A DNA stretch of 42,514 nucleotides, taken from positions 4,400 to 46,913 of the forward strand of contig CAZAHF010000003.1 in assembly GCA_964484995.1 (NCBI GenBank), written 5' to 3'. Numbering within the stretch: position 1 is the first letter of the stretch; every line of letters begins with the position of its first letter. A program made the position numbers and the translations under genes. The stretch comes from an uncultured Candidatus Bathyarchaeia archaeon (GTDB lineage: Archaea > Thermoproteota > Bathyarchaeia > Hecatellales > Hecatellaceae). The notes beneath the pieces are model-generated. The model searched no databases, was not told the origin of the DNA, and saw only the letters and a list, made by a program, of their open reading frames with translations. Positions 1 to 16,032 of this stretch are shown here, in pieces.

Positions 1-746
1 AACTTCTCCAGGTCTGCTTCTGCCTTCTGTTTTTCAACCTCTTTATCAAAACTATGAGGTATCACTATCCTAGGTTTTACCCACTCTAAAATTTTTACAC
101 TTCTCTCTTCAAGTCTTGAAAAAACAGCAATCAAAACTATTTGAGGCTTAAATTTTTCACTGTAGGTTTTAAGCTCCTCTATAGGTATAGTTTCACCTAT
201 ATTCCAAATTCTTAAACCAGTTTCAGTTTGGATAATGTATCCTTGAAGAGGGCCAACAGGAACTTTAAACCCGAAATCTAAAACATCTGGAGGTAAAACC
301 TTCTGGAAAAGTCTTATTACCTCCTCCCTACTTTTTGGTTGGATTGTAAAATCATCTAAAAACCATCGGATAACATCAACGGTAGGTGTATGTTCTCCTT
401 TTGTTGCTGTTATACTTAAGTTTCCAACTTTAACAGTTTCATCATAATCAATTGGGATTAATCTCTCCCTTGGAATGTTTAATGTTTTCTCAACAAAGTC
501 ACAAAGCACTTTTGACGCAACAAGCTTTACATTTATTCTTTTCAAGATTTTTAGTGCATCCTCAAAGTGGTCAAAATGTCCATGGGTAATAAGTAGAAGG
601 TCTGCATGCCTAATATCTTCTGATAGAATGGGTGGGGGGTTAAAAGAAACTCTACGGTCTAAATATGGATCCATATAAATTTTTATGTTTTCTTCTGTTG
701 TTATTTCAAGACTGGAAACACCAAGCCACCTAATTTTTAAACTCAA
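1..746 (-). CDS. MBL-fold metallo-hydrolase (UlaG/UPF0173-like), 3' end runs off window
   Basis: Not in ORF track. Manual translation from TTG at 746: MSLKIRWLGVSSLEI...IYMDPY...LLLITHGHFDH (HxHxDH motif)...WNIGET...KPRIVIPH; the segments translated are in one frame with no stop, and the frame reaches the window edge. Confidence 0.88.
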   Translation of the reverse strand, partial: MSLKIRWLGVSSLEITTEENIKIYMDPYLDRRVSFNPPPILSEDIRHADLLLITHGHFDHFEDALKILKRINVKLVASKVLCDFVEKTLNIPRERLIPIDYDETVKVGNLSITATKGEHTPTVDVIRWFLDDFTIQPKSREEVIRLFQKVLPPDVLDFGFKVPVGPLQGYIIQTETGLRIWNIGETIPIEELKTYSEKFKPQIVLIAVFSRLEERSVKILEWVKPRIVIPHSFDKEVEKQKAEADLEK

Positions 747-897
747 AGTTCTTCTACCCTAAATATTTTAAACTTTCCTTAAAAAAAATAAAAATTTATT
801 ACTGGCTGAAACAAAAATTATACAACGAAAAATAATAACTTACCGGGCTCATAGAAGACATGAGCTTCTTCTCTTCTAAACTGGGGTTCGGTAAAAG

Positions 898-1188
898 TTG
901 ACTGAACCTAAAAAATGTTCTCCTAAGTGTGAGTTTTTTAGATGCGGCCAAAAAGCTCTTCAATTTAGGTCTGGTAAGGCCTATTGTAGGTTTGCTGATG
1001 ACCTATGTGAAGGATACACATGTAAATATGCTTTTTGTGTGAGGAATCGACTTTTACCTGATGGTGTATGTGGTTTAACTGTTAAGAGAACAACAACCAG
1101 TCTTGAGGTTCCACCTGAAGAAGTTGTTAAGGGTATTAAGGTTAAAGGTAAACTTCAAAAGAAGCTTGGAGAAAAGGAAATTTTTTAA
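898..1188 (+). CDS. Cys-rich small protein of unknown function (8 Cys, probable metal-binding)
   Basis: 96 aa ORF, TTG start after GGGGT SD-like motif; C7,C11,C16,C30,C37,C42,C47,C58; 32 nt upstream of Brix gene in same orientation. Confidence 0.75.
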   Translation: MTEPKKCSPKCEFFRCGQKALQFRSGKAYCRFADDLCEGYTCKYAFCVRNRLLPDGVCGLTVKRTTTSLEVPPEEVVKGIKVKGKLQKKLGEKEIF

Positions 1189-1220
1189 CCATAAAACAAA
1201 TAGTGGTTTAGGAGAAAAAT

Positions 1221-1778
1221 TTGCAACAGTTTCATCTTCTTATAACAAGTTCCCGTAGACCAACCAGATCCATGAGAACTTTAATGAGGGATCTTCATAC
1301 AGTTATACCAAAATCTCATAGAATAAATCGTGGTAAGATGAGTATGGAAGATTTAGCTGAAACAGCATCCAGTCTTAACGCCAAATATGTTTTAATTGTT
1401 AACAGATGGAAGGGTGGACCTGGAAAAATAGAGTTTTATAGGGTTTTAGATGGAGAGTTGCAGCTTATTTCTCCTTTGCTTTACGTTAGAGGTATAAGGC
1501 TTCAAAGAGAGTACAAGATTTTTTGGAGAAAACTTAGAATTAGATGTAGAAGCTTAGCTATAATAAAACCAGTAAAAGAAAAGCTTCAAAAGTTAGCTGA
1601 AACTTTATCAACCGTTTTTAACTCCCCTATAGTTTCTGAGGATGAAAAAGACGAGTTTCAGGTTTATGTTAAACTTTTTGAAGGATTAGATTATGAGGCA
1701 AAAATAACGTTTTTTTCAACTATCCATAATATGGAAATAGGGCCTACACTTTATCTTAAAAAGGTTGTAGAGTTTTGA
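1221..1778 (+). CDS. Brix-domain (Imp4-like) ribosome biogenesis protein
   Basis: N-terminal ITSSRRPTRSMRTLMRDLH...RINRGKMSMEDL and RWKGGPGKIEF, C-terminal EIGP; usual position before pcc1. Confidence 0.88.
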   Translation: MQQFHLLITSSRRPTRSMRTLMRDLHTVIPKSHRINRGKMSMEDLAETASSLNAKYVLIVNRWKGGPGKIEFYRVLDGELQLISPLLYVRGIRLQREYKIFWRKLRIRCRSLAIIKPVKEKLQKLAETLSTVFNSPIVSEDEKDEFQVYVKLFEGLDYEAKITFFSTIHNMEIGPTLYLKKVVEF

Positions 1779-2035
1779 GAGAAAAATTTCCTGTGAGAGC
1801 AACAGTAAGCATTAGCGTAGACTCTACAAAAAAAGCAGAAAAAATAGTTAAGGTTTTAACTGTTGAATCTAGGTCTACCCCAACCTTAAAGTTTAAGGTT
1901 TTGGTTAAAAAGGAAAAAGGAAGAGTGGTGTTAGCTTTTAAGGCTTCTGACCTAACGGCTTTAAGAGCTTCAATAAACTCTTTTTGCCGCTGGGTTGGTA
2001 TGTTAAACAAGGTTCTTAATATTTTAAGATCCTAA
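1775..2035 (+). CDS. pcc1: KEOPS complex subunit Pcc1
   Basis: 86 aa; C-terminal ASDLTALRASINSFCRW signature; 4-nt overlap with Brix; upstream of pfdB. Confidence 0.88.
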   Translation: MREKFPVRATVSISVDSTKKAEKIVKVLTVESRSTPTLKFKVLVKKEKGRVVLAFKASDLTALRASINSFCRWVGMLNKVLNILRS

Positions 2036-2043
2036 AAATTGTG

Positions 2044-2271
2044 TTAGACTTGTTGAGCTTGGGTTGTTTCTCCTTTTAAAAGCCATCTACTCATAAAACC
2101 TAAACCAACAAACAAAAATGCGAGAAAAATTGAGATGGTAAAAAGGTTTTGGCGGGTGAACTCTATAAGCCTAACAGGGTTTAAAAGAAGATATGAAACC
2201 ATAACCGCTATGAGAACTGCTAAACCTACTGCTACTAGTAAGGCAACTTTAAGTTTTCTTTCTAAAACCAA
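2044..2271 (-). CDS. Small two-TM membrane protein, unknown function
   Basis: 75 aa ORF filling an otherwise empty gap; two hydrophobic stretches (VALLVAVGLAVLIAVMVSYLLL; LFTISIFLAFLFVGLGFM). Confidence 0.55.
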   Translation of the reverse strand: MVLERKLKVALLVAVGLAVLIAVMVSYLLLNPVRLIEFTRQNLFTISIFLAFLFVGLGFMSRWLLKGETTQAQQV

Positions 2272-2317
2272 ACCTTTAAACCCTTTAAAATCTAATGTTT
2301 TCTTTTAAGTAGAAGAT

Positions 2318-2330
2318 AAAAACTTTAATT
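2318..2330 (+). promoter_or_regulatory. Putative BRE/TATA promoter for pfdB
   Basis: AAAAACTTTAATT about 75 nt upstream of pfdB start; same pattern recurs at 6823. Confidence 0.35.
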
Positions 2331-2403
2331 AGAATGTTTATGTTCTCATTAGTTTGAGTCTACCTACCATAATATTAAGAGTTAGGGTTGTGGTGTTAAA
2401 AAC

Positions 2404-2766
2404 TTGGGCGAGGAAACAGAAATACCTCCAAATCTTCAGGAAGAGCTTGCAAAACTTCAACAACTTCAACAAACTCTACAAATTATAGTCTCTCAAAAAC
2501 AGCAGGTTGAAATGGAGCTAACAGACACCGATAGAGCCTTAGAAGAGTTAAAGAAGATGGGTGATGATGCTGTTATCTATAAGACTGTGGGTATGCTTCT
2601 TGTTAAAAAAGATAAAGAGTCTGTAACAAAAGACCTAACAGAAAGAAGAGAGCTTCTTAGTGTTAGAGCCTCTGTTCTTGGTAAACAAGAAGAAAGAACA
2701 AGAGAAAGGTTAAGAGAGCTTCAGCAACAAATCCAAGCTAGGCTAAGACAACAACAACCAACCTAA
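2404..2766 (+). CDS. pfdB: Prefoldin beta subunit
   Basis: 120 aa coiled-coil; LQQLQQTLQIIVSQKQQVE...ALEEL...VIYKTVG pattern. Confidence 0.95.
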   Translation: MGEETEIPPNLQEELAKLQQLQQTLQIIVSQKQQVEMELTDTDRALEELKKMGDDAVIYKTVGMLLVKKDKESVTKDLTERRELLSVRASVLGKQEERTRERLRELQQQIQARLRQQQPT

Positions 2767-2812
2767 ACTTCCTGCCCTTTAATTTTTAGTTTCCTGTCAG
2801 TAGGAAAGAGAA

Positions 2813-3814
2813 ATGCTTGTTAAACTAAAAAACTTTCTCAAAAAAACCCATGCAAAATATGGAATAATTTTTTGCCATCATAACGCAGATCCAGATGCAC
2901 TCTATTCTGCTAACGTTCTCCTAAAACTTTTAAGAAAAATTAGGCCAAAACTTAAATGTGAAATTTTTCCTGTTCAAGGTCCAAGTAAACTTTCAAAACT
3001 TTTAATGAGAAAGGTTCCTGTTAAGATGGTAGAGAAGCCAAAGCTTTGGAAGGCTGACTTTTTTGTTTTGGTTGATACAAGCACAATAAAACAGCTTGAT
3101 GAATGGGGTTTAAAAATTAAAAAGTCTCGTAAGCCCATTCTTGTTATAGATCACCATGCAATTCATCCTAAAACAAGAAAAATTGCTTCACTAATGATTG
3201 TTGATGTTAATGCACGTTCAACATGTGAAATTGTTTATAGAATTTGTCGTGAAGCAAAGTTTAGACTAACTAAAAAAGATGCTTTAGGTTTACTGTTTGG
3301 AATAATTTTTGAAACAAAAAATTTTCGTTATGCTTCAGCTAAAACCCTAAGACTCTCAGCTGAACTTTTAGAATATGGGTTAACTATTGAAGAAGCCTTA
3401 AAATCTATGGTTAAACCTGTGGAAAAACCTGAAAAAATAGCAAAACTTAAAGCTGCAAGCAGGCTTCAACTTTATAGGTTTAACGATTGGCTTATAGTTT
3501 TAACTCATGTTAGTTCTTATCAAGCTTCAGTCGCTAGAGCTCTTCTTGCTTTGGGTGGTGATGTGGCTGTTGTTGCTGGTGGAAAGAAAGGTGAGTTTAA
3601 AGTTAGTTTAAGAGCTACTCAAGAATTTTATGATAAAACAAAAATTCATCTGGGTAAGGATGTTGCTTTTGTTTTGGGTGAAAAATTTGGTGGTATGGGT
3701 GGCGGACATGCTACCTCGGCTGGAGTTAATGGTTATGGTAATTTTGAGGATGTTTTAAGGGAGACTTTAAAAGTTTTAAGGGAAAAAATTATGGTTAAAC
3801 CTGGTTTAAGATAG
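2813..3814 (+). CDS. DHH family phosphoesterase (DHH + DHHA1)
   Basis: HHNADPDAL, VDTS, IDHH and C-terminal GGGHATSAG motifs. Confidence 0.92.
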   Translation: MLVKLKNFLKKTHAKYGIIFCHHNADPDALYSANVLLKLLRKIRPKLKCEIFPVQGPSKLSKLLMRKVPVKMVEKPKLWKADFFVLVDTSTIKQLDEWGLKIKKSRKPILVIDHHAIHPKTRKIASLMIVDVNARSTCEIVYRICREAKFRLTKKDALGLLFGIIFETKNFRYASAKTLRLSAELLEYGLTIEEALKSMVKPVEKPEKIAKLKAASRLQLYRFNDWLIVLTHVSSYQASVARALLALGGDVAVVAGGKKGEFKVSLRATQEFYDKTKIHLGKDVAFVLGEKFGGMGGGHATSAGVNGYGNFEDVLRETLKVLREKIMVKPGLR

Positions 3815-3833
3815 CTAGTAATACGGATGCAAT

Positions 3834-3874
3834 ACCTAAATTTTTAGGTTAGATATCCTAAATCAAATTTAGGT
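3834..3874. repeat. Nested inverted repeats (CCTAAA/TTTAGG x4)
   Basis: ACCTAAATTT (3834-3843) is the reverse complement of AAATTTAGGT (3865-3874); inner TTAGG/CCTAA pair 3844-3848/3857-3861. Confidence 0.6.
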
Positions 3875-3913
3875 TTATAGAGGTAGAATAGTAGGGTGAG
3901 GTTGAAAGTTTAG

Positions 3914-4513
3914 TTGCAATATCTTCAAAAAGCTGTTGATGAGATAATTACTGCCCTTTCAAAGTGTTTAAAACATGTTGATATGAGGCAGGTTGAAAAG
4001 TTTATAGATATACTGTTAGACGCTAAAGAAAAAAATAAGAAAATTCTTGTTATGGGTGCTGGAAGAAGCGGTTTGGTTGGAAGAGCTTTTGCTATGAGAC
4101 TAATGCACTTAAACTTTAATGTTCATGTTATAGGGGAAACGATAACTCCCGCATTAGAAAAAGATGATATTCTTGTTGCAATTTCAGGTTCAGGTTCAAC
4201 AACCACAGTTGTGGCTGCTGCAAAAATAGCTAAAAAGGTTGGAGCAAAAATTTTAGCTATAACCTCCTATCCAAACTCACCTCTAGGAAGACTTTCAGAC
4301 CATAAAATAGTAATTCTTGGTCGAACAAAAATAACAGGTAAAAAAGACTATTTTTCACGTCAAATTTTGGGTGTTCATGAGCCTCTTGCACCGTTAGGCA
4401 CAATTTTTGAAGCCTCTACAAGTATTTTTCTTGATGCTTTAATAGTTGAGCTTATGCATAGGCTTGGAAAAACAGAAGCAGACCTAAAAAAAAGACATGC
4501 AACCATAGAGTAG
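3914..4513 (+). CDS. hxlB: 6-phospho-3-hexuloisomerase (SIS domain)
   Basis: GAGRSGLVGRAFAMRLMHL, GETITP, ISGSGST, PLGTIFE, C-terminal HATIE. Confidence 0.92.
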   Translation: MQYLQKAVDEIITALSKCLKHVDMRQVEKFIDILLDAKEKNKKILVMGAGRSGLVGRAFAMRLMHLNFNVHVIGETITPALEKDDILVAISGSGSTTTVVAAAKIAKKVGAKILAITSYPNSPLGRLSDHKIVILGRTKITGKKDYFSRQILGVHEPLAPLGTIFEASTSIFLDALIVELMHRLGKTEADLKKRHATIE

Positions 4514-4595
4514 CCTCCTATAAAAACAATAACTTTTTTAAGTTGCTAGGTATCTGCTTTTCTGTTAGTTAGAACATGTTAAAGGGAATGAGTGT

Positions 4596-6782
4596 ATGCC
4601 AAAACTTAAAACAACAGCTGAAATCTTAAAGATAGTCCATAACCTAGACCAGGTTAGAAATGCAGGTATTATAGCTCATGTTGACCATGGAAAAACAACC
4701 CTAACAGACTCTTTACTTTCAGCTGCAGGTTTGCTTTCACCTTCAGTTGCAGGTACAGCTTTAGCTCTGGACTATCTGGAGGAAGAGCAAAAAAGACAGA
4801 TGACAATTAAGGCTGCAAACATAAGCCTCTACTACGAAATTGACGGGAAACCTTACGTTATAAACCTTATAGATACACCTGGACATGTTGACTTCTCAGG
4901 TAGGGTTACAAGGTCTTTAAGAGCTATTGATGGTTGTGTGGTTGTTGTTGATGCTGTAGAAGAGGTTATGGTTCAGACAGAAACTGTTACAAGACAAGCC
5001 TTAGAAGAAAGAGTTAGACCTGTTTTATACATAAATAAGATAGATAGGTTAATCAAAGAGCTTAGACTTACCCCAAACCAGGTTCAAGAAAAACTTTTAA
5101 GAATAATCCGTGAATTCAACAATCTTATTGAGCTTTATGCTGAACCAGAATTTCGAGATAAATGGAAGGTAAGCCCTGCAACTGGAACTGTAGCTTTTGG
5201 TTCAGCAAAAGACCGATGGGGGCTTACAATTCAGTCTGCTCAAGAAAAGGGAATAAAGTTTTCAGATATAGTTTCAGCTTACCAAGAGGGAAGAGTACAA
5301 GATCTTGTTAAAATCGCACCGTTACATGAGCCTATTCTAGATATGATTATTAGACATATACCATCTCCACCTATAGCTCAAAAGTATAGGATACCCAAAA
5401 TTTGGCGTGGAGATCTTTCAAGTGAAGTAGGTAAAGCCATGTTAAACTGCGATCCAGACGGGCCTCTTGTTATGTGTATCACAAATGTTGTTGTGGATCC
5501 TCAGGCTGGTGTTGTTGCTACCGGCCGACTTTTCTCAGGAACCGTAAAAGCGGGAGATATTGTTAGGCTTATAGGTGCTAGAGATGATTGCAGAATCCAG
5601 GAAGTATGTATTTATATGGGTCAGTTTAGAGAAGTTGTTGGTTCACTTCCAGCAGGTAATATCCCCGCTTTGCTTGGCTTAGATAAGGCTAGAGCAGGTG
5701 AAACGATTTCCTCTTTAAGAGATACGATACCGTTTGAACAGCTTCAGTATGTTAGTGAACCTGTCGTAACAATTGCTATTGAACCTAAACATAGTAAGGA
5801 CCTGCCCAAACTTATCGACTTTTTAAGAAAGCTTTCACTTGAAGACCCAAACCTTGTGGTAAAAATAAACGAGGAAACAGGTGAATATCTGATTTCAGGT
5901 ATGGGACAGCTTCACTTAGAAATAGCAACAACATGGATTCAGAAAGCTGGACTAGAAATTGTAACCTCTAAACCGATAGTTCTTTATAGGGAAACTGTAC
6001 GAAAAGAAGGCCAGGTTTTTGAGGGTAAATCCCCAAACAAACATAACAGAATCTACATGAAAGTTGAGCCTTTAGAACCTGAAATTATTGAACTTATAAA
6101 GAAGGGGGAACTCTCCGACTATACACCACGTCATCAAGTTGCAAAAATTTTAAGAGAACATGGTTGGGAGACTGATGAGGCTAGAGGTGTATGGAGAATA
6201 GATGAGCATTGTAACATACTTACAGATGTAACCAAGGGAATTCAAAGACTGGACGTGGTTAAAGACTCTATTATCTCAGCTTTTAACTGGAGTATTGAAG
6301 AGGGCCCATTAGCCTATGAAACCATTAGAGGTGTGAAGGTAAAACTTGTTGACGCACAAATCCATGAAGACCCTGTACACACAGGACCAGCCCAAATAAT
6401 GCCTGCAACACGTAGATCGCTTTATGCTAGTTTTCTTTCAGCAAACCCAACTTTACTTGAACCTATTCTAAAGGTTACTGTAAAAGTTCCACCTGAACAA
6501 GTTGGAAATGTTACAAAAATAATAGTTGGTAAGCGTGGTAAGGTAGTTTCTCTTGAACAAAAAGAACATATTATGCATATAATAGGCGAGATTCCTACAG
6601 CAGAAACATTTGACCTTTCAGAGCTTATGAGAAGTGCAACTGCTGGAAAAGCATTTTGGGGAACAGAATTCTTAAAATGGGAGTTTGTACCAGCCTCTAT
6701 GGTAAACCAGCTGATTAGAGAAATTAGAAAACGTAAAGGTTTATCACCAGAACCGCCAACCGTAGAGGACTTCATAGAATAA
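4596..6782 (+). CDS. fusA: Elongation factor 2 family GTPase (variant; probable aEF-2 paralog)
   Basis: 728 aa; AHVDHGKTT, DTPGHVDF, NKID; switch I reads RQMT instead of RGIT; diphthamide loop reads HEDPVHTG instead of HxDxxHRG. Confidence 0.95.
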   Translation: MPKLKTTAEILKIVHNLDQVRNAGIIAHVDHGKTTLTDSLLSAAGLLSPSVAGTALALDYLEEEQKRQMTIKAANISLYYEIDGKPYVINLIDTPGHVDFSGRVTRSLRAIDGCVVVVDAVEEVMVQTETVTRQALEERVRPVLYINKIDRLIKELRLTPNQVQEKLLRIIREFNNLIELYAEPEFRDKWKVSPATGTVAFGSAKDRWGLTIQSAQEKGIKFSDIVSAYQEGRVQDLVKIAPLHEPILDMIIRHIPSPPIAQKYRIPKIWRGDLSSEVGKAMLNCDPDGPLVMCITNVVVDPQAGVVATGRLFSGTVKAGDIVRLIGARDDCRIQEVCIYMGQFREVVGSLPAGNIPALLGLDKARAGETISSLRDTIPFEQLQYVSEPVVTIAIEPKHSKDLPKLIDFLRKLSLEDPNLVVKINEETGEYLISGMGQLHLEIATTWIQKAGLEIVTSKPIVLYRETVRKEGQVFEGKSPNKHNRIYMKVEPLEPEIIELIKKGELSDYTPRHQVAKILREHGWETDEARGVWRIDEHCNILTDVTKGIQRLDVVKDSIISAFNWSIEEGPLAYETIRGVKVKLVDAQIHEDPVHTGPAQIMPATRRSLYASFLSANPTLLEPILKVTVKVPPEQVGNVTKIIVGKRGKVVSLEQKEHIMHIIGEIPTAETFDLSELMRSATAGKAFWGTEFLKWEFVPASMVNQLIREIRKRKGLSPEPPTVEDFIE

Positions 6783-6822
6783 ACCTAAAAATTCTCTTAT
6801 TCTTCTGCTTTTTTGGCTAAAC

Positions 6823-6835
6823 AAAAAACTTTAAG
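6823..6835 (+). promoter_or_regulatory. Putative BRE/TATA promoter for M24 gene
   Basis: AAAAAACTTTAAG upstream of a gene carrying a strong GGAGGTG SD (6896-6902). Confidence 0.35.
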
Positions 6836-10289: not shown

Positions 10290-11279
10290 ATGGCTGCTAT
10301 TGCTAAAGCTCCAGCAAAAATAATTCTTTTAGGTGAACATTTCTGTGTTCATGGAGCTCCAGCTATAAGTATGGCTATAAACCTATATGCAAAAGTTAAA
10401 GTTGAAAAATGGAAAGAAGAAGGATTGTATATTTCCTCAAAAAATTTTGGTGTTTCAGCTGTATACCAAAATAAGGGTTTTTTAGTTAAGGAGGGTGATA
10501 TGGAGGAAGCTAAGAGGATTTTAAATCCTATAAGGATAGCTGTAGAGTCAACGTTAAAAAATAAAGGTTTAACTTTTAAGGGTTTAAAGGTTGAAGTTGA
10601 TTCTGAAATTCCTGTTGGGGTTGGACTTGGTTCTTCTGCAGCTATAACTGTTGCGACAATAGCGGCAACAGCTAAACATTTTGGTTTTAACCTTCCAAAA
10701 GAAGAGGTTTGTTTTTTGGCTTATGACTCTGAACGTTATATACATTTTAATCCTTCTGGTGTAGACCAGACAACCTCAACTTATGGTGGAATTATTCTTT
10801 ATAGGGTAAGTTCACCTGTTAAACATTTAAAACCTTTAAAACACCCTGTTTTTGTTATTGGAAATACTGGTATTAGAAGAGTTACTGGTGACTTTGTAAA
10901 AAAGGTTGGAAAACTAAAGGAAGAAAGGAAGGAGCTTTTAGAAAGCCTACTAAAAACAGCTGAAAACCTTGTTTTAGATGGTGTTAAAGCGTTAGAAAGT
11001 GGAAACGTAACCTTATTCGGAGAACTTATGAATAAAAACCATGAACTACTCTCAAAGATTGGTGTTTCTCATGAAAAACTTGAGTTGTTTGTGGATACAG
11101 CTCGTAAGGCTGGTGCTTTAGGCGCAAAACTTACTGGTGGTGGAGGTGGGGGTTGTATGATAGCCTTGGTTAAACCTGAAAAACTGGTTGAGGTTGCTAG
11201 GGCTATTAGAGAGGTTGGAGGAGAAATCTATATAGTTGAGACAGATTGGATGGGTGTTCAAAGCTGGGTTGAAATCTAG
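10290..11279 (+). CDS. mvk: Mevalonate kinase
   Basis: APAKIILLGEH, PVGVGLGSSAA (GHMP motif), PSGVD, KLTGGGGGGC. Confidence 0.93.
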   Translation: MAAIAKAPAKIILLGEHFCVHGAPAISMAINLYAKVKVEKWKEEGLYISSKNFGVSAVYQNKGFLVKEGDMEEAKRILNPIRIAVESTLKNKGLTFKGLKVEVDSEIPVGVGLGSSAAITVATIAATAKHFGFNLPKEEVCFLAYDSERYIHFNPSGVDQTTSTYGGIILYRVSSPVKHLKPLKHPVFVIGNTGIRRVTGDFVKKVGKLKEERKELLESLLKTAENLVLDGVKALESGNVTLFGELMNKNHELLSKIGVSHEKLELFVDTARKAGALGAKLTGGGGGGCMIALVKPEKLVEVARAIREVGGEIYIVETDWMGVQSWVEI

Positions 11280-11284
11280 AAAAA

Positions 11285-12097
11285 GTGGTGGTGTTAAGGC
11301 TGGCTTCTTTTTTAAAGATTCTTAAACTTGGAGGTTCTGCTATAACAGATAAAACAAAACCTTTTTCGGTTAGAAAAGATGTTGTTGATAGTTTAGCTAG
11401 GGAGGTTTTAGATGCAAAACCTAAACGTTTAATTATTATTCATGGAGGAGGCTCTTTTGGACATCCTCTAGCAAAAAAGTATAGGCTTGTAGAAGGCTTT
11501 AAAAATAAAACTCAACTTACTGGTTTTGCTGAAACTAGAAGAGTAATGATGATGCTTCACAAAATTATTGTTGACACTTTTACTTCTCACGGTGTAAACG
11601 TTGTTTCTGTCCCACCTCTAGCCTTTATAAGAACAAGAAACAGACGTATAAGCTTCTTAGATAAAACAGTTTTAAGCAGGCTTTTAGGTTTAGGTTTAAC
11701 TCCAATTCTTTTTGGGGATGTTGTGCTGGATGAAAAGCTTGGTTTTACGATTCTTTCCGGAGACCAGATTGCCGCAAAGTTAGCTGTTGTTTTACAGGCT
11801 GAGAGAATAGTTTTAGCAACAGATGTTGACGGTGTTTTTACTTCAAATCCAAAAACAGATCCAAATGCAAGATTACTTCGTCAGTTAAGCCTAAGTAAAC
11901 TAGGAAAAATTGTTAACGAAAAATCTAAACCTGAATTGTCTATGGATGTTACAGGAACAATGATTGGAAAACTTAAAGAGATGGTGCCTGCTGTAAACAG
12001 GGGTGTTAAAGTTTTTGTTGTTAACGCATTAAAAAGTGGAAGAGTTTCCCAAGCATTAAAAAGCTCTAAGATTGAGGGAACAACATTAAAACCTTAA
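11285..12097 (+). CDS. ipk: Isopentenyl phosphate kinase
   Basis: LKLGGSAITDK, HGGGSFGH, GDVV, SGDQI, DVTGTM; directly follows mvk. Confidence 0.92.
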   Translation: MVVLRLASFLKILKLGGSAITDKTKPFSVRKDVVDSLAREVLDAKPKRLIIIHGGGSFGHPLAKKYRLVEGFKNKTQLTGFAETRRVMMMLHKIIVDTFTSHGVNVVSVPPLAFIRTRNRRISFLDKTVLSRLLGLGLTPILFGDVVLDEKLGFTILSGDQIAAKLAVVLQAERIVLATDVDGVFTSNPKTDPNARLLRQLSLSKLGKIVNEKSKPELSMDVTGTMIGKLKEMVPAVNRGVKVFVVNALKSGRVSQALKSSKIEGTTLKP

Positions 12098-12528
12098 GCT
12101 TTCTTCTTAACCTCTACAGTCCCATCAGAAAAAATTTTTACCCAATCTCCAGTTCTAATAACCTCTAAAGGATTCTTATTTAACCTATCTACAAGTGGAA
12201 TGTTTGCTAAAGCACATCCAACAGCAATAATTGCCTCAGTTTTTATGTTTAATATGGCTGATGGGGCTGTACCATGTTTAGCCATGGCATAAAGCACATA
12301 AGAACCTACACTACTTCCCTTTCCATAGGGAAAAACAAGAACTTTTCTAGCTACGTTTTTCCCGTTTAACTCATGGTTTTTCTCAATAATCAAACCAGTT
12401 TTAGGGTTAACTCCACCAAAAAAAGATATAGGTTGACTTGTTACTAATGCTTCTCCCTCAACCTCTTTTGAAAGAAGGTTTCTACCCTTTAGAAGAATTA
12501 ACATTAAACGGTAATCCTCCTTAAACAT
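12094..12528 (-). CDS. Phosphomevalonate dehydratase small subunit (AcnX swivel, DUF126)
   Basis: ISFFGGVNPKTG, FPYGKGSSVGSY, IAVGCALANIP; start may be the ATG at 12504. Confidence 0.9.
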   Translation of the reverse strand: MFKEDYRLMLILLKGRNLLSKEVEGEALVTSQPISFFGGVNPKTGLIIEKNHELNGKNVARKVLVFPYGKGSSVGSYVLYAMAKHGTAPSAILNIKTEAIIAVGCALANIPLVDRLNKNPLEVIRTGDWVKIFSDGTVEVKKKA

Positions 12529-13709
12529 TCAAGTGTGTTTTCAAGTTTAACCTTTAACCTGTTTGTTGACGGTAGATAATGAGCAGCCTTACAAGAATCT
12601 GTATAAACAACTTCTAAACCCAACCTCTCTAAAGGTGAGACAACCATGCATGTATCACATAAAACTAATCCTCCAGCTTTTTCAACTAATCTCACATAAC
12701 CAAGCTTTTTTGCTTTTTCATAAATAAGTCTTGAAGTAAAAATCCAAAGCCTAGCTTTAGGCTTAACCTTTTTTCCTCTTAAAAAAGCTGCAACTTCTCT
12801 AAGTTGACTAAGACTATAGTGAGGACAGCCAAGAAAAACAGCTTCACACCGTTCATAAGCCTCAGACAAATCTTGAATTGTTTGTTTAACTTCCCCTAAG
12901 CCAACCTCAAACTTTTCAATGTCCTTTAAATTATCCTCAGAAAAAAATTTTGCTTCTGGGGTTAAGTTTTCCACATGATATAAGGCTATGGCTCCTGCTG
13001 AAGCTAAACCAGCACCTAAGACCTTTAACCAATCCTTACTTACTAAACCTAAACCTGAAAAAAATGGAACTTTTTCAGGAAAATTTTTTCCAACAAAGTA
13101 GCCTAAAGCGCTGATTTCTAGTTGATTTGAAGGCTTAAATTTAACCTTAACCCTAACATTTGGTTTCCGGTTTTCCTCTAGAAGATAACCATAATATGGT
13201 GTTCTTCCCGTAACTGCACTAGCTAAAGCTGATAAACCGCTTTCCCTATTAGTTTTTGCTCCTAAAACAGAGTTAGCATAAACCGTTGCCGAAGACTCAG
13301 CCCAAGCAACATAATCCCCAAATTTTGGTTTATTCCCTATTAGGTAGGGTATGCATGAACAGCTTAAACTTACACCCATTCTTTTAAAGGCTTTAAGCAC
13401 CTCAGACTGTTTTTTAGCAAAATCTTTGTCCAGACCAGTCTTTTTCCATCTTTTTCTATCCATACCTGAAGGGTTTAAAGTTGTTTTAACTCTCACTCTA
13501 ACATTTTCCTCAGCAAAACCTTTAAGAAGCTCTAAACCTGGTTCTCCAATGTTTTTGTAGGAGACACCTGAAACATGACAACTTTTAACTTTAACCATCT
13601 TTTCAGCTTCAAAAAGTTCTCCTAAAACAACAAGCAGCCTCATACATTTAGCTAACCCTTCACCATACTCACCGTTAAACATAAGTTCTTCTTCACGGGT
13701 TAAATACAT
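12504..13709 (-). CDS. Phosphomevalonate dehydratase large subunit (AcnX, DUF521)
   Basis: MYLTREEE, HVSGVSY, SCIPY, WAESSA, LGCPH, DTCMVV. Confidence 0.92.
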   Translation of the reverse strand: MYLTREEELMFNGEYGEGLAKCMRLLVVLGELFEAEKMVKVKSCHVSGVSYKNIGEPGLELLKGFAEENVRVRVKTTLNPSGMDRKRWKKTGLDKDFAKKQSEVLKAFKRMGVSLSCSCIPYLIGNKPKFGDYVAWAESSATVYANSVLGAKTNRESGLSALASAVTGRTPYYGYLLEENRKPNVRVKVKFKPSNQLEISALGYFVGKNFPEKVPFFSGLGLVSKDWLKVLGAGLASAGAIALYHVENLTPEAKFFSEDNLKDIEKFEVGLGEVKQTIQDLSEAYERCEAVFLGCPHYSLSQLREVAAFLRGKKVKPKARLWIFTSRLIYEKAKKLGYVRLVEKAGGLVLCDTCMVVSPLERLGLEVVYTDSCKAAHYLPSTNRLKVKLENTLECLRRITV

Positions 13710-13735
13710 AAAACGTTAAACCTCAATAGCTTCTT

Positions 13736-15076
13736 TTACCCTTTAAGCCTTCTAAGTAGTTTTTTAACTTTGTCATTTTTAGGTATGTTTACCTTTTCAA
13801 ATTTTTCTGGAGGCTTAGAAAGAGGTTTGGTTGCGTCAAACCCAACTTTTGTTGTTGCTCCTGTTTCCTGATTTGCTGACGGATCTAAGGTTGAACCTCT
13901 AACACCCCTAACCACAACCAGATCTTTATCTCCTTGAAACCTTGTAGCTAAAGCCCACTCAACCTCAGTAAGATTTTCAATGTTTATGTCTTCATCAACC
14001 ACAACAACATGTTTTAAGCTTGGATGACCTGTAAAAGCAGCCAAAATAGTGTTTTTACCATCCCCTTCCAACTGTTTTTTTATGCTTATAAAGGCATGAA
14101 GCCATCCACAACCACCATCTGTAAGCTTAACAGCCTTAACTGTAGGCACAACCTCTTTCACACTTTCCCATATTTTTGCTTCTCTAAACAACCCCATGAA
14201 TATTTTATGTTCGGAGCCAGCCGGAAGCAAAGCCTGATAAATACAGTCTTTTCTACGCATAACACTTAAAAGTCTAACAACGGGCTGAAGCCTAACAGCA
14301 TCATAGGTTTGGGTTAAATCTGCAAAAGGCCCCTCCTGAACATTCTCATCTAAAACTATTTCACCCTCAAAAACAATTTCAGCATCAGCTGGAACATTTA
14401 AATCAACATTTTCACATCTTGTAAGCCGTAGTTTACCGTTAAGTATAGCGTTAGCAACCCAGTATTCACTTAAGCCAAACGGTGCTGGTGAAGCGGCTGC
14501 TAACAATACTGCAGGGTGAACCCCAATAGAAATAGCAATCTCCAGTGTTTTTTTCCCTTCCTCCTTAGCCATCTCACAAAGCTTGTAAAGGTGACGTGGA
14601 ACAATCCTAATTGCAAGCTTATCTTCACCTAAAACCTGAAACCTATGAACAGAAACATTTTCAATTTTTCCATCTGGACTTTTAGCTGAAACAACTGATG
14701 AAGTTATATATGGTTTTTCTTTTTCATAGTGGGTTAAGATAGGAAACTTTTTTAGATTTGGTTTTTCTATAACCTCCTTTACTTCACCGTTATTATCCAC
14801 AACTGGTTTTATTGGGTTTTTTAATGCATTAAGAATTTTTTTATAGAGATTTTCTTGGTCTATATTTAAAGCCATACAAATCCTTTCTTTATCTCCACAA
14901 ACACCTGCAACAACAGGGAAATTTGATTCTTCAATTTTTTCAAAAAAAACTGCTTTTTTAGCTTCAAACTCTCTAATTATTGCTGCAGCTTCAAATTTTG
15001 CTGAAACCTTATCCTTAACCTTAACAAGCTTTTTTTTGTTTTTAAGTTGGCTAATAAATTCTCTTAAGCTAGCCAT
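13736..15076 (-). CDS. UbiD-family decarboxylase, probable anhydromevalonate phosphate decarboxylase
   Basis: RIVPRHL, EGPFADLT, VVVVDEDINI, RGSTLDPS; co-oriented with both AcnX subunits next to mvk/ipk. Confidence 0.88.
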   Translation of the reverse strand: MASLREFISQLKNKKKLVKVKDKVSAKFEAAAIIREFEAKKAVFFEKIEESNFPVVAGVCGDKERICMALNIDQENLYKKILNALKNPIKPVVDNNGEVKEVIEKPNLKKFPILTHYEKEKPYITSSVVSAKSPDGKIENVSVHRFQVLGEDKLAIRIVPRHLYKLCEMAKEEGKKTLEIAISIGVHPAVLLAAASPAPFGLSEYWVANAILNGKLRLTRCENVDLNVPADAEIVFEGEIVLDENVQEGPFADLTQTYDAVRLQPVVRLLSVMRRKDCIYQALLPAGSEHKIFMGLFREAKIWESVKEVVPTVKAVKLTDGGCGWLHAFISIKKQLEGDGKNTILAAFTGHPSLKHVVVVDEDINIENLTEVEWALATRFQGDKDLVVVRGVRGSTLDPSANQETGATTKVGFDATKPLSKPPEKFEKVNIPKNDKVKKLLRRLKG

Positions 15077-15134
15077 GTTAACAACATCCTAGTATCTGTA
15101 GGTAAGGCTAATAGATATTAGGTGTTTTTGTTGT

Positions 15135-15150
15135 AGAAAAATCTATAAGT
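15135..15150 (+). promoter_or_regulatory. Putative BRE/TATA for the C/D sRNA
   Basis: AGAAAAATCTATAAGT; TATAA at 15144-15148, about 25-28 nt upstream of the sRNA 5' stem. Confidence 0.5.
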
Positions 15151-15171: not shown

Positions 15172-15230
15172 GGGCTTTGATGAGTCAGAGTTGAAATGAT
15201 TTAGTGATTAAAAGGCATTTGTCTGAGCCC
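15172..15230 (+). ncRNA. Archaeal C/D box guide sRNA (dual guide)
   Basis: GGGC stem 15172-75; C box TGATGA 15178-83; 12-nt guide GTCAGAGTTGAA; D' ATGA 15196-99; C' GTGATTA 15204-10; 12-nt guide AAAGGCATTTGT; D box CTGA 15223-26; GCCC 15227-30 closes the stem. Fully intergenic. Confidence 0.9.
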
Positions 15231-15249: not shown

Positions 15250-16032
15250 TTATTCTATTGTTGTTTTTTCAAAAACCCATGCTGCTAAAAACGTAAATAC
15301 TAAGGTTGCCCCCAAAAGAACTGTAAGACTTAAAGCTAAAGGAAAGAAACCAACACCAGTTAAAACTTTTCTTGCAGCATCAACACCATAAGTTAAAGGG
15401 TTTAAAAAAGCCATAATCTTCATCCAGCTAGGCATAGTCTCAACAGGGAAAAATGCTCCACTAAGAAAAAGCGTAGGCATAGCTATGAAGGTTGTTAAAA
15501 GCTGAAATCCCTCCATACTTTTTATTTTTGAGGCTAGAGTTATACCTAAACATGTAAAGGTTAAAGCTGTAAGAAAAACTGTTAGAACAAGGATAGGTAC
15601 CCCTTTTAACAAAAGGTTTGGTGTTAGAAGGTAGGCTACAGCTAAAACTATGAATCCTTGAAGAACAGCAACAGTAGAATCCCCTAGGGCTCTACCAAAA
15701 ATTAGGATACTTCTTGAGGTTGGAGCAACCAAAACCTCCTTTAAAAAACCAAACTCCTTATCCCATATAATGGAAATTCCAGCCATAAAAGACGTAAAAA
15801 ACACAGCCATCAGAATTATTCCAGGTATAAGGAAAGACATATAGTTCATACTGTTAAATGCACGGTAACCTTGAAAAGTTAAAGCTGAAGTAAACCCTAA
15901 ACCAAAAAACAGCATCCAAAAAAGAGGCTGGGCAATCGAACCTACAAGTCTAGACCTTGCTCTAATAAATCTTTTTACTTGCCTATACCACATCACATAG
16001 GTTGAAACCAAAATTTCTTTAGTCTTAACCAA
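15250..16032 (-). CDS. ABC-2 type transporter permease (DrrB-like)
   Basis: Six hydrophobic segments; DKEFGFLKEVLVAP, FLSGAFFP, NPLTYGVDA. Confidence 0.92.
   Translation of the reverse strand: MVKTKEILVSTYVMWYRQVKRFIRARSRLVGSIAQPLFWMLFFGLGFTSALTFQGYRAFNSMNYMSFLIPGIILMAVFFTSFMAGISIIWDKEFGFLKEVLVAPTSRSILIFGRALGDSTVAVLQGFIVLAVAYLLTPNLLLKGVPILVLTVFLTALTFTCLGITLASKIKSMEGFQLLTTFIAMPTLFLSGAFFPVETMPSWMKIMAFLNPLTYGVDAARKVLTGVGFFPLALSLTVLLGATLVFTFLAAWVFEKTTIE

What the first reader, a model, noticed from the sequence alone, without database searches (positions are those of the whole stretch)
15172..15230. Unannotated dual-guide C/D sRNA predicted to methylate 23S H69/H71 at eukaryote-conserved sites
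Seen: complete C-D'-C'-D architecture, two 12-nt guides, a 4-bp terminal stem and an upstream TATA, antisense to both flanking genes. The D guide core AAGGCATTTG is complementary to CAAAUGCCUU in LSU helix 70/71; the D+5 rule selects the A equivalent to yeast Am2281 (snR13; E. coli A1938). The D' guide core GTCAGAGTT is complementary to AACUCUGAC, the helix 69 loop variant I recall for crenarchaeal-type 23S; D'+5 selects the A equivalent to yeast Am2256 (snR63; E. coli A1913). Two targets about 25 nt apart in the intersubunit-bridge region is typical of real archaeal sRNAs and would link this lineage's rRNA modification to the eukaryotic pattern.
Basis: partly seen in the sequence, partly recalled or inferred. 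Interest (0 to 1): 0.72.

Follow-up and report, generated by a model that had tools for sequence, protein, structure and literature searches.

The report
Archaeal dual-guide box C/D sRNA gene
This 59-base stretch is a genuine, conserved archaeal box C/D guide RNA gene in a Bathyarchaeia genome, predicted to direct ribose methylation of two adenosines 25 nt apart in the large-subunit rRNA; it is a well-supported but ordinary example of a known kind of RNA.

Summary
Window 15172-15230 (+) has the full C-D'-C'-D layout: terminal stem GGGC/GCCC, box C UUGAUGA, two 12-nt guides, box D' AUGA, box C' GUGAUUA and box D CUGA. A conserved BRE/TATA element lies about 26 nt upstream. This layout occurs once in the window and in 0 of 300 shuffles.

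The contig is from Bathyarchaeia. Two syntenic relatives, found through the neighbouring protein, carry the same RNA, and all 9 variable columns fall in positions predicted to be unconstrained (P about 4e-7). At least 120 further metagenome contigs carry the same guide pair. They also have a C box and a covarying terminal stem that the search did not specify.

Every Bathyarchaeia 23S retrieved contains both targets. The N+5 rule selects the equivalents of E. coli A1913 (helix 69) and A1938, which correspond to yeast Am2256 and Am2281.

Expression and methylation remain untested, and the host's own 23S was not available. Novelty is modest. Crenarchaeal sRNAs with these guides, carried on separate RNAs, are already published, and helices 69-71 are a known methylation hotspot. 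It is a new member of a known kind. Interest 0.35.

The parts
15133..15149 (+). BRE/TATA-like promoter element GTAGAAAAATCTATAAG, about 26 nt upstream of the sRNA 5' end
   Evidence: It forms a conserved island in the alignment of the three syntenic Bathyarchaeia intergenic regions, while the spacer downstream of it diverges. Its promoter function is inferred from archaeal promoter geometry and was not tested.
15172..15175 (+). 5' half of the terminal stem (GGGC)
   Evidence: It pairs with 15227-15230. The stem covaries across 43 representative orthologues: 85.7% of cells are paired, 38 cells carry a change on both sides, and 0 of 500 shuffles reach this.
15177..15183 (+). Box C (UUGAUGA)
   Evidence: An RUGAnGA box sits at this fixed offset in 93 of 94 unique orthologues, although the search pattern did not specify it.
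15184..15195 (+). D' guide GUCAGAGUUGAA (12 nt); positions 4-12 pair by Watson-Crick with 23S [9 protein letters not shown] and position 3 forms G.U; N+5 selects the equivalent of E. coli A1913 (helix 69 loop)
   Evidence: The core UCAGAGUU is invariant in the three Bathyarchaeia orthologues found through the protein. Position 3 changes from G.U to A-U in L003, and the unpaired positions 1, 2 and 12 vary.
15196..15199 (+). Box D' (AUGA, one base off the CUGA consensus)
   Evidence: Identical in the window, L002 and L003. A1 of D' can pair with U6 of box C' (UGAUUA), replacing the canonical C1-G6 pair; this point is inference.
15200..15203 (+). D'-C' connecting loop (UUUA)
   Evidence: Variable in sequence and length among orthologues.
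15204..15210 (+). Box C' (GUGAUUA, one base off consensus)
   Evidence: UGAU is conserved in the three Bathyarchaeia copies.
15211..15222 (+). D guide AAAGGCAUUUGU (12 nt); positions 2-11 pair by Watson-Crick with 23S [10 protein letters not shown]; N+5 selects the equivalent of E. coli A1938
   Evidence: The guide is identical in L002 and L003, identical to the D guide of S. acidocaldarius Sac-sR125, and shares 14 contiguous nt (guide plus box D) with the Rfam SNORD15 consensus.
15223..15226 (+). Box D (CUGA)
15227..15230 (+). 3' half of the terminal stem (GCCC)
   Evidence: covariation.
13736..15076 (-). Flanking gene: UbiD-family decarboxylase, part of an archaeal mevalonate-pathway cluster; transcribed divergently from the sRNA and not part of it
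15250..16032 (-). Flanking gene: ABC-2 type transporter permease; convergent with the sRNA and not part of it

Best explanation
Window 15172-15230 (+) is an independently transcribed gene for a 59-nt archaeal box C/D sRNA of a Bathyarchaeia archaeon. Shown by sequence: boxes C and D, brought together by a 4-bp terminal stem with a 3-nt bulge (UUU), have the geometry of a kink-turn. Boxes D' (AUGA) and C' (GUGAUUA) keep the GA dinucleotides needed for a k-loop. The two 12-nt spacers are complementary to two segments of Thermoproteota-type 23S rRNA that lie 25 nt apart. Inferred from established knowledge of box C/D sRNPs: L7Ae binds the two K-motifs, Nop5 and fibrillarin assemble on them, and each guide pairs with nascent 23S rRNA. 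Fibrillarin then 2'-O-methylates the nucleotide opposite the fifth guide position upstream of box D' or box D. For the D' guide this is the second A of the helix 69 loop (equivalent to E. coli A1913 and yeast Am2256). For the D guide it is the third A of CAAAUG in the H69-H71 linker/H70 region (equivalent to E. coli A1938 and yeast Am2281). Because both guides bind within 25 nt of each other, the RNP may also help this intersubunit-bridge region to fold. The RNA belongs to a family that carries this same guide pair in Bathyarchaeia and Nitrososphaeria.
For: Architecture: one hit in the window, 0 in 300 shuffles, and the only candidate in a relaxed scan. Class: 20 of 26 sub-threshold Rfam hits are C/D-box families on this strand and span. 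Lineage: the closest UbiD homologues are all Bathyarchaeia. Independent conservation: orthologues in L002 (UbiD 83% identical) and L003 (72%) were found through the protein, not the RNA. They have identical boxes C, D' and D, an identical stem and an identical D guide, and all 9 variable columns fall in 15 unconstrained positions (P=4e-7). The upstream TATA is also conserved. Family: at least 120 metagenome loci carry both guide cores. Of 94 unique sequences, 93 have an unspecified C box at the fixed offset. The terminal stem covaries, with 0 of 500 shuffles and all slid controls lower. Targets: the 23S motif pair is present in 102 of 120 genome hits, all Thermoproteota-type rRNA, and lies inside Rfam-confirmed LSU rRNA genes. 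These are the unique best sites in Bathyarchaeia 23S and in a 16S+23S locus. Random guides reach a 9-bp Watson-Crick run in 2.5% of cases and a 10-bp run in 0.5%; both within 100 nt occurred in 0 of 20000 pairs. Numbering was set by alignment. Precedent: RNA-seq-detected crenarchaeal sRNAs with the same guides are predicted to target the same positions (PMC4644070). The SNORD15 consensus shares AGGCAUUUGUCUGA.
Against: There is no expression or methylation evidence. The host's own 23S rRNA is not in hand, so targets were tested on other Bathyarchaeia. Boxes D' and C' are non-consensus, so the D' half could be weaker or inactive. The D' duplex is only 9 Watson-Crick pairs plus 1 G.U, with two mismatches next to box D', and in L002 and L003 it is 9 bp. 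No L7Ae, Nop5 or fibrillarin gene lies in the window, although none is expected to be linked. Conservation of the guides among the metagenome hits is circular, because the guides were the search pattern.
Confidence: 0.82

Rival explanations
1. It is a genuine C/D sRNA, but only the D guide (A1938 equivalent) directs methylation. The D' half, with non-consensus AUGA and GUGAUUA boxes and a shorter duplex, would serve only as auxiliary pairing or as a folding chaperone for helix 69, or would be inactive.
For: D' is AUGA and C' is GUGAUUA. The D' duplex has 9 Watson-Crick pairs plus 1 G.U and leaves positions 1-2 unpaired. Six orthologues have no recognisable D' box, and the D' register differs between lineages. 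Dual guides within 100 nt have been proposed to act as chaperones (PMC6009581).
Against: The D' guide core is invariant in the independently found Bathyarchaeia orthologues, and position 3 keeps its pairing (G.U to A-U). The AUGA box is itself conserved and keeps the GA needed for the k-loop. The C-D' spacing is exactly 12 nt. Crenarchaeal sRNAs use the same guide next to a canonical D box and are predicted to methylate this site.
Confidence: 0.13
2. It is a cis-acting or antisense regulatory RNA, or a structural element, tied to the flanking UbiD-like or ABC-permease genes. On this reading its resemblance to a C/D sRNA would be incidental.
For: It sits between the two genes on the opposite strand and keeps that position in L002 and L003. 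A different C/D-like element occupies the equivalent spot upstream of UbiD in L005-L007.
Against: It overlaps neither ORF. The same RNA family lies in unrelated contexts elsewhere, next to orotate phosphoribosyltransferase in Nitrosopelagicus-like contigs and next to reverse gyrase in L135. What is conserved is the boxes, the guides and the stem, not complementarity to the neighbours. No terminator-like or sigma-70-like signal is present.
Confidence: 0.02
3. It is a chance constellation of short motifs in AT-rich intergenic DNA and not a gene.
For: The boxes are short and the window is 36% G+C. The minimum-free-energy fold is only modestly better than shuffles (z = -2.3).
Against: There were 0 hits in 300 shuffles. 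The element is conserved with function-consistent substitutions in relatives whose flanks have diverged. At least 120 orthologues have a covarying stem. No random guide pair matched two sites within 100 nt in 20000 trials.
Confidence: 0.01

Closest known systems
Sulfolobus acidocaldarius Sac-sR125 and Ignicoccus hospitalis Iho-sR109 (Dennis et al. 2015, PMC4644070)
   Same: Both are archaeal box C/D sRNAs detected by RNA-seq. Their D guides are AAAGGCATTTGT (Sac-sR125, identical to the window) and GAAGGCATTTGT (Iho-sR109). Their predicted target is 23S alignment position A2204, which is the equivalent of E. coli A1938.
   Different: Their D' guides target G2172, at the base of helix 69, rather than the A1913 equivalent. 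Sac-sR125 has box D CAGA. They come from hyperthermophilic Thermoprotei, not Bathyarchaeia.
S. acidocaldarius Sac-sR113 and I. hospitalis Iho-sR91 (PMC4644070)
   Same: They carry the guide core UCAGAGUUAC against the helix 69 loop. Iho-sR91 is predicted to target A2179, the equivalent of E. coli A1913.
   Different: In these RNAs the H69 guide is the D guide, next to a canonical CUGA, rather than the D' guide. It is partnered with a different second guide (G2211 in Iho-sR91). The window therefore combines, in one RNA, two guides that these Crenarchaeota carry on separate RNAs.
Eukaryotic SNORD15 (U15) / yeast snR13
   Same: The guide and D box are the same: the Rfam SNORD15 consensus GAGGCAUUUGUCUGA shares 14 contiguous nt with the window's AAGGCAUUUGUCUGA. 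snR13 guides yeast 25S Am2280 and Am2281 (PMC5699541), and Am2281 is the equivalent site.
   Different: SNORD15 is about 146 nt, and only its 3' guide region matches (18.6 bits against a gathering score of 75). Its other half is unrelated. The guide identity is dictated by the conserved target, so it does not prove common descent.
Yeast snR63 (human SNORD46 from my own recall, not checked here)
   Same: It guides Am2256 in the helix 69 loop (PMC5699541), which is the equivalent of the site selected by the D' guide here.
   Different: No sequence similarity was detected by Rfam. The eukaryotic H69 loop reads AACUAUGAC (my recall) against AACUCUGAC here, so the guides must differ.
Pyrococcus sR families in Rfam (sR11, sR49, sR20, sR24, sR14, sR17)
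   Same: They share the overall size of 55-60 nt, the box order and the spacing. They are the best sub-threshold Rfam matches over the full length.
   Different: The guides differ, and every score is below the family's gathering score (best 25.4 against 39), so the window RNA is not a member of any of them.

Membership tests
Archaeal box C/D sRNA | Box C (RUGAUGA) near the 5' end and box D (CUGA) near the 3' end | tested here: met
   UUGAUGA lies at 15177-15183 (the R position is U) and CUGA at 15223-15226. The C box recurs at the fixed offset in 93 of 94 orthologues.
Archaeal box C/D sRNA | A terminal stem that brings C and D together so that a kink-turn can form (canonical stem, 3-nt bulge, tandem G.A pairs) | tested here: met
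   GGGC/GCCC directly abuts box D and leaves UUU as a 3-nt bulge before the GA of box C. The stem covaries in 43 orthologues: 0 of 500 shuffles, covariation score 0.415 against at most 0.205 for slid controls.
Archaeal box C/D sRNA | Internal D' and C' boxes able to form a k-loop | tested here: met
   The boxes are AUGA and GUGAUUA. Each is one base off consensus and both keep the GA dinucleotides. They are conserved in L002 and L003. K-loop formation itself was not tested.
Archaeal box C/D sRNA | Guide spacers of about 12 nt (C to D' and C' to D) and a total length of 50-70 nt | tested here: met
   The spacers are 12 and 12 nt and the total length is 59 nt. This fits the ranges given in PMC7994747.
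Archaeal box C/D sRNA | Guides complementary to rRNA or tRNA, with the N+5 nucleotide inside the duplex | tested here: met
   The guides give Watson-Crick runs of 10 bp (D) and 9 bp plus one G.U (D') that cover position 5. These are the unique best sites in Bathyarchaeia 23S and in a 16S+23S locus. The test used 23S genes of other Bathyarchaeia, because the host's own 23S is not available.
Archaeal box C/D sRNA | Expressed as a stable small RNA | not testable with these tools
   Only a conserved upstream BRE/TATA-like element is available as indirect support.
Archaeal box C/D sRNA | Assembles with L7Ae, Nop5 and fibrillarin and directs 2'-O-methylation | not testable with these tools
   None of these genes is in the window. 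Their presence elsewhere in the genome is assumed from general knowledge of archaea.
Any curated Rfam C/D family (e.g. sR11 RF01150, SNORD15 RF00067) | Score at or above the family's gathering threshold | tested here: not met
   There are no hits at gathering scores. The best scores are sR11 at 25.4 against 39 and SNORD15 at 18.6 against 75.
Dual-guide H69/A1938 sRNA family of Thermoproteota (defined here) | A D' guide core UCAGAGUU and a D guide core AAGGCAUUUG in one C/D sRNA, with a covarying terminal stem | tested here: met
   The window, L002, L003 and at least 120 metagenome loci meet this definition. Neighbouring genes place examples in Nitrosopelagicus-like and Nitrosothermus-like Nitrososphaeria.

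The most novel reading that the evidence does not exclude
This RNA may represent an ancient, vertically inherited dual-guide sRNA family. It is shared by Bathyarchaeia and Nitrososphaeria, including mesophiles that appear to have very few C/D sRNAs. Its two target sites coincide with two 2'-O-methyl adenosines conserved in eukaryotes (yeast Am2256 and Am2281), and its D guide plus D box is identical over 14 nt to the SNORD15/U15 consensus. On this reading, methylation of the helix 69 to helix 71 bridge region, and possibly the U15/snR13-type guide RNA itself, would predate the split between archaea and eukaryotes. The 1-nt shift of the D' box in Nitrosopumilaceae (A1912 rather than A1913) would then be a natural example of a guide RNA retargeting to an adjacent nucleotide.
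Probability: 0.25. Interest if true: 0.6.

Novelty: new member of a known kind. Interest (0 to 1): 0.35.

Why it matters
C/D box sRNAs are under-annotated in archaeal genomes (PMC7994747), and in the paper library searched they seem little described for Bathyarchaeia and Nitrososphaeria. This one is a clean, comparatively validated example. It shows that the helix 69 and H70/71 adenosines, which lie at intersubunit bridge B2a and are methylated in yeast, are predicted guide-RNA targets in mesophilic, uncultured Thermoproteota as well as in hyperthermophiles. Published comparisons report that exact methylation sites are generally not conserved between archaeal lineages, 'with a few notable exceptions' (PMC6009581). 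These two sites look like such exceptions. The alignment made here could seed a covariance model for annotating this family. The biology itself is expected rather than surprising.

Tried and rejected
1. Rfam at gathering thresholds gave no hits in the window. At relaxed thresholds only generic sub-threshold C/D matches appeared, so the RNA belongs to no curated family.

2. My first guide-target score (Watson-Crick plus half-weight G.U, mismatches allowed anywhere) was too permissive: shuffled guides reached the observed score in 3-14% of trials. I replaced it with a contiguous-run and joint-proximity test.

3. I looked for the sRNA inside the 23S-bearing genome loci, and used BLAST between those loci and the sRNA loci to assign taxonomy. 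Neither gave any hit. Taxonomy was obtained instead from neighbouring proteins.

4. A fibrillarin motif search and Pfam scans of the window found no C/D RNP proteins.

5. The more distant UbiD loci L004 and L008 showed no copy of this sRNA; only L004's UbiD-upstream intergenic region was read directly. L005-L007 have a different C/D-like element at that spot, and its guides found no run of 9 bp or more in Bathyarchaeia 23S.

6. The bacterial-type promoter and terminator scan found nothing. It is not informative for archaea.

7. The minimum-free-energy fold pairs the guides with the boxes. I disregarded it because the folding program does not model K-turns or bound proteins.

8. Literature searches for the guide strings in main texts returned only irrelevant hits. 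The relevant matches were in the supplement of PMC4644070.

Full report
**What is in the sequence.** Window 15172-15230 on the plus strand reads GGGC uu UGAUGA GUCAGAGUUGAA AUGA uuuaG UGAUUA AAAGGCAUUUGU CUGA GCCC. That gives a 4-bp terminal stem, box C (UUGAUGA), a 12-nt guide, box D' (AUGA), a short loop, box C' (GUGAUUA), a second 12-nt guide and box D (CUGA). The terminal stem abuts box D directly and leaves three unpaired U residues before the GA of box C, which is the geometry of a kink-turn. Boxes D' and C' are each one base off consensus but keep their GA dinucleotides. U6 of C' could pair with A1 of D', replacing the usual G-C pair; this last point is inference. A scan for the whole architecture finds this one site in the window and none in 300 shuffles. 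A relaxed scan finds no second candidate in the 42.5 kb. The element lies in the 173-nt gap between a UbiD-family gene (13736-15076, minus strand) and an ABC-2 permease gene (15250-16032, minus strand). It is on the opposite strand to both genes and overlaps neither.

**Where the window comes from.** The UbiD-family protein matches an ENA metagenome contig exactly. Its closest named homologues are all from Bathyarchaeia or 'Candidatus Bathyarchaeota'. The window contains no tRNA or rRNA gene and no L7Ae, Nop5 or fibrillarin gene. It encodes aEF-2, an archaeal mevalonate-pathway cluster, a 2-oxoacid dehydrogenase complex with lipoylation genes, and lysine (DAP) biosynthesis genes.

**Independent comparative evidence.** I fetched relatives through the protein, not the RNA. 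Two contigs keep the permease-UbiD synteny: L002 (UbiD 83% identical) and L003 (72%). Both carry the RNA on the same relative strand. Box C, box D', box D, the stem and all 12 nt of the D guide are identical in the three copies, as is the D' guide core UCAGAGUU. The 9 variable columns all fall in the 15 positions not predicted to be constrained. These are D' guide position 12, D' guide positions 1-3, the D'-C' loop and the last base of box C'. The hypergeometric probability is 4e-7. D' guide position 3 changes from G to A, which keeps pairing with the rRNA U (G.U becomes A-U). The intergenic alignment shows a second conserved island, GTAGAAAAATCTATAA, about 26 nt upstream of the 5' stem. This spacing fits an archaeal BRE/TATA promoter. 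The spacer and the downstream flank diverge.

**A large family.** Among 94 unique sequences, 93 have an RUGAnGA box C exactly one base upstream of the D' guide core, although the pattern did not require it. In an alignment of 43 diverse representatives (A1), a 6-bp terminal stem is paired in 85.7% of cells. Five of the six pairs show changes on both sides, 38 cells in all. None of 500 shuffles reaches these values, and slid controls score at most 0.205 against 0.415. Neighbouring genes place the dominant type in marine Nitrosopumilaceae, where an adjacent orotate phosphoribosyltransferase is 94% identical to one from Ca. Nitrosopelagicus. A second type lies next to a reverse gyrase whose closest named relative, at 69% identity, is from Ca. 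Nitrosothermus. The family therefore spans at least Bathyarchaeia and Nitrososphaeria and sits in unrelated genomic contexts. That argues against a role tied to the neighbouring genes.

**Targets.** I scanned one genome per species for AACTCTGA, a gap of 13-17 nt, then CAAATGCCTT. Of these, 102 share a 33-nt span and the sequence [40 protein letters not shown]. They come from Thermoproteota and include 15 records labelled Bathyarchaeia or Bathyarchaeota among the 80 titled rows shown. The remaining 18 hits are not rRNA-type sequence; 16 have other spans and 2 share the 33-nt span by chance, and all are chance matches in bacteria. Rfam places the sites inside full-length archaeal LSU rRNA genes. 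In four Bathyarchaeia 23S genes, the best site for the D' guide is AGUAACUCUGAC (9 Watson-Crick pairs plus 1 G.U, contiguous). The best site for the D guide is CCAAAUGCCUUG (10 contiguous Watson-Crick pairs). In a Bathyarchaeota locus that carries both 16S and 23S, these remain the unique best sites. Random 12-mers of window composition reach a 9-bp run covering position 5 in 2.5% of cases and a 10-bp run in 0.5%. None of 20000 random guide pairs matched two sites within 100 nt. Global alignment to E. coli rrlH maps the nucleotide opposite D' guide position 5 to A1913 and the one opposite D guide position 5 to A1938. The two sites are 25 nt apart.

**Eukaryotic equivalence.** The published yeast table lists 25S Am2256 (snR63) and Am2280/Am2281 (snR13) (PMC5699541). 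With A2256 set opposite the D' target, all nine yeast modifications between positions 2256 and 2288 fall on the correct base in the Bathyarchaeia 23S. At any other offset within 15 nt, at most 4 of 9 do. The D target therefore corresponds to Am2281. Rfam's SNORD15 (U15) consensus shares AGGCAUUUGUCUGA with the window, which is the D guide plus box D, although the overall score is far below that family's threshold.

**How it most likely works.** By analogy with characterised archaeal C/D sRNPs, L7Ae binds the terminal kink-turn and the internal k-loop, and Nop5 and fibrillarin then assemble on them. The two guides pair with nascent 23S rRNA, and fibrillarin methylates the 2'-OH of the nucleotides opposite guide position 5 (mechanism summarised in PMC7994747). 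The architecture, its conservation and the complementarity are shown here. Transcription, RNP assembly and methylation are inferred. About 45% of Pyrobaculum sRNAs have both targets within 100 nt of each other, which has been read as a chaperone role in rRNA folding (PMC6009581). That may apply here as well.

**Comparison with what is known.** Helices 68, 69 and 71 are described as predicted methylation hotspots in hyperthermophilic archaea, with a high density of sites around E. coli A1912 (PMC4644070). The supplement of that paper lists sRNAs detected by RNA-seq that carry these guides. Sac-sR125 has a D guide, AAAGGCATTTGT, identical to the window's. Iho-sR109 has a closely similar one. Both are predicted to target alignment position A2204, the A1938 equivalent. 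Sac-sR113 and Iho-sR91 carry the guide TCAGAGTTAC, and Iho-sR91 is listed against A2179, the A1913 equivalent. In those Crenarchaeota the two guides sit on separate RNAs with different partner guides. In Bathyarchaeia and Nitrososphaeria they are joined in one RNA. No curated Rfam family reaches its gathering score. In the paper library, the top-ranked papers naming Thaumarchaeota or Bathyarchaeota contain no occurrence of 'box sRNA'. This suggests, but does not prove, that the family is undescribed in these lineages.

**Verdict.** The element is a new member of a known kind and is not a new mechanism. The main open points are whether the RNA is expressed, whether both guides are active given the non-consensus D' and C' boxes, and what the host's own 23S sequence is. 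One unexplained detail is that 72 unique orthologues of the Nitrosopumilaceae type have 4 nt between the guide core and box D', where the window and 14 others have 3 nt. By the N+5 rule this moves their predicted site to A1912.

Noticed in passing
L005 about 5887-6000 (minus strand relative to UbiD); the same element is in L006 and L007: In Bathyarchaeia with a UbiA-UbiD arrangement (UbiD 65% identical), the spot upstream of UbiD and on the opposite strand holds a different C/D-like element: UAUGAGGA-AGGCUUCUAGUU-CUGA-uuu-AUGAUGA-AGGCUAGAUUAU-CUGA. Neither guide has a Watson-Crick run of 9 bp or more in the Bathyarchaeia 23S tested.
   Followed up: partly
L129-L248 (orthologue set), e.g. L155 7326-7367: The D' box register shifts within the family. 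In 72 unique Nitrosopumilaceae-type copies the C-D' spacer is 13 nt, so N+5 selects the A1912 equivalent. In 15 copies, including the window, it is 12 nt and selects the A1913 equivalent. Six copies have no recognisable D' box.
   Followed up: partly
L141 1118-1159 and L198 265-306 (both from contig Ga0247727_10000002, 833 kb): There are two copies of the sRNA on one contig. The L198 copy has a disrupted 3' terminal stem (...CUGAGAUGUAC) and may be a decaying paralogue.
   Followed up: no
L194 901-942: This copy has both guides and box D but no box C; AGCCCATCAGGCCC replaces the 5' stem and C box. It may be a truncated copy or an assembly junction.
   Followed up: no
L037, L041, L060 (genome-contig hits): Archaeal Thermoproteota-type 23S rRNA sequence appears in MAGs labelled Patescibacteria, Sphingobium and 'bacterium'. 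This is most likely binning contamination.
   Followed up: no
window 10290-15076: This is a compact gene cluster for the archaeal-type mevalonate pathway: GHMP kinase, amino-acid-kinase-family (isopentenyl phosphate kinase-like) protein, AcnX large and small subunits, and a UbiD-family decarboxylase. The sRNA promoter diverges from the UbiD gene.
   Followed up: no
window 1-6822 compared with L001: The exact-match ENA contig (43,355 nt) ends at about window position 6823, so the window extends beyond it. The protein table lists a 46.9-kb contig carrying the identical UbiD protein, so the window probably comes from that other assembly of the same organism.
   Followed up: no
Bathyarchaeia loci L010, L086, L050 and L044, compared with L067: In several Bathyarchaeia genomes, Rfam found no 16S gene within the 8-kb loci around the 23S gene, whereas L067 has a 16S motif about 3.4 kb upstream of the target site. 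rRNA operon organisation may vary within the class.
   Followed up: no
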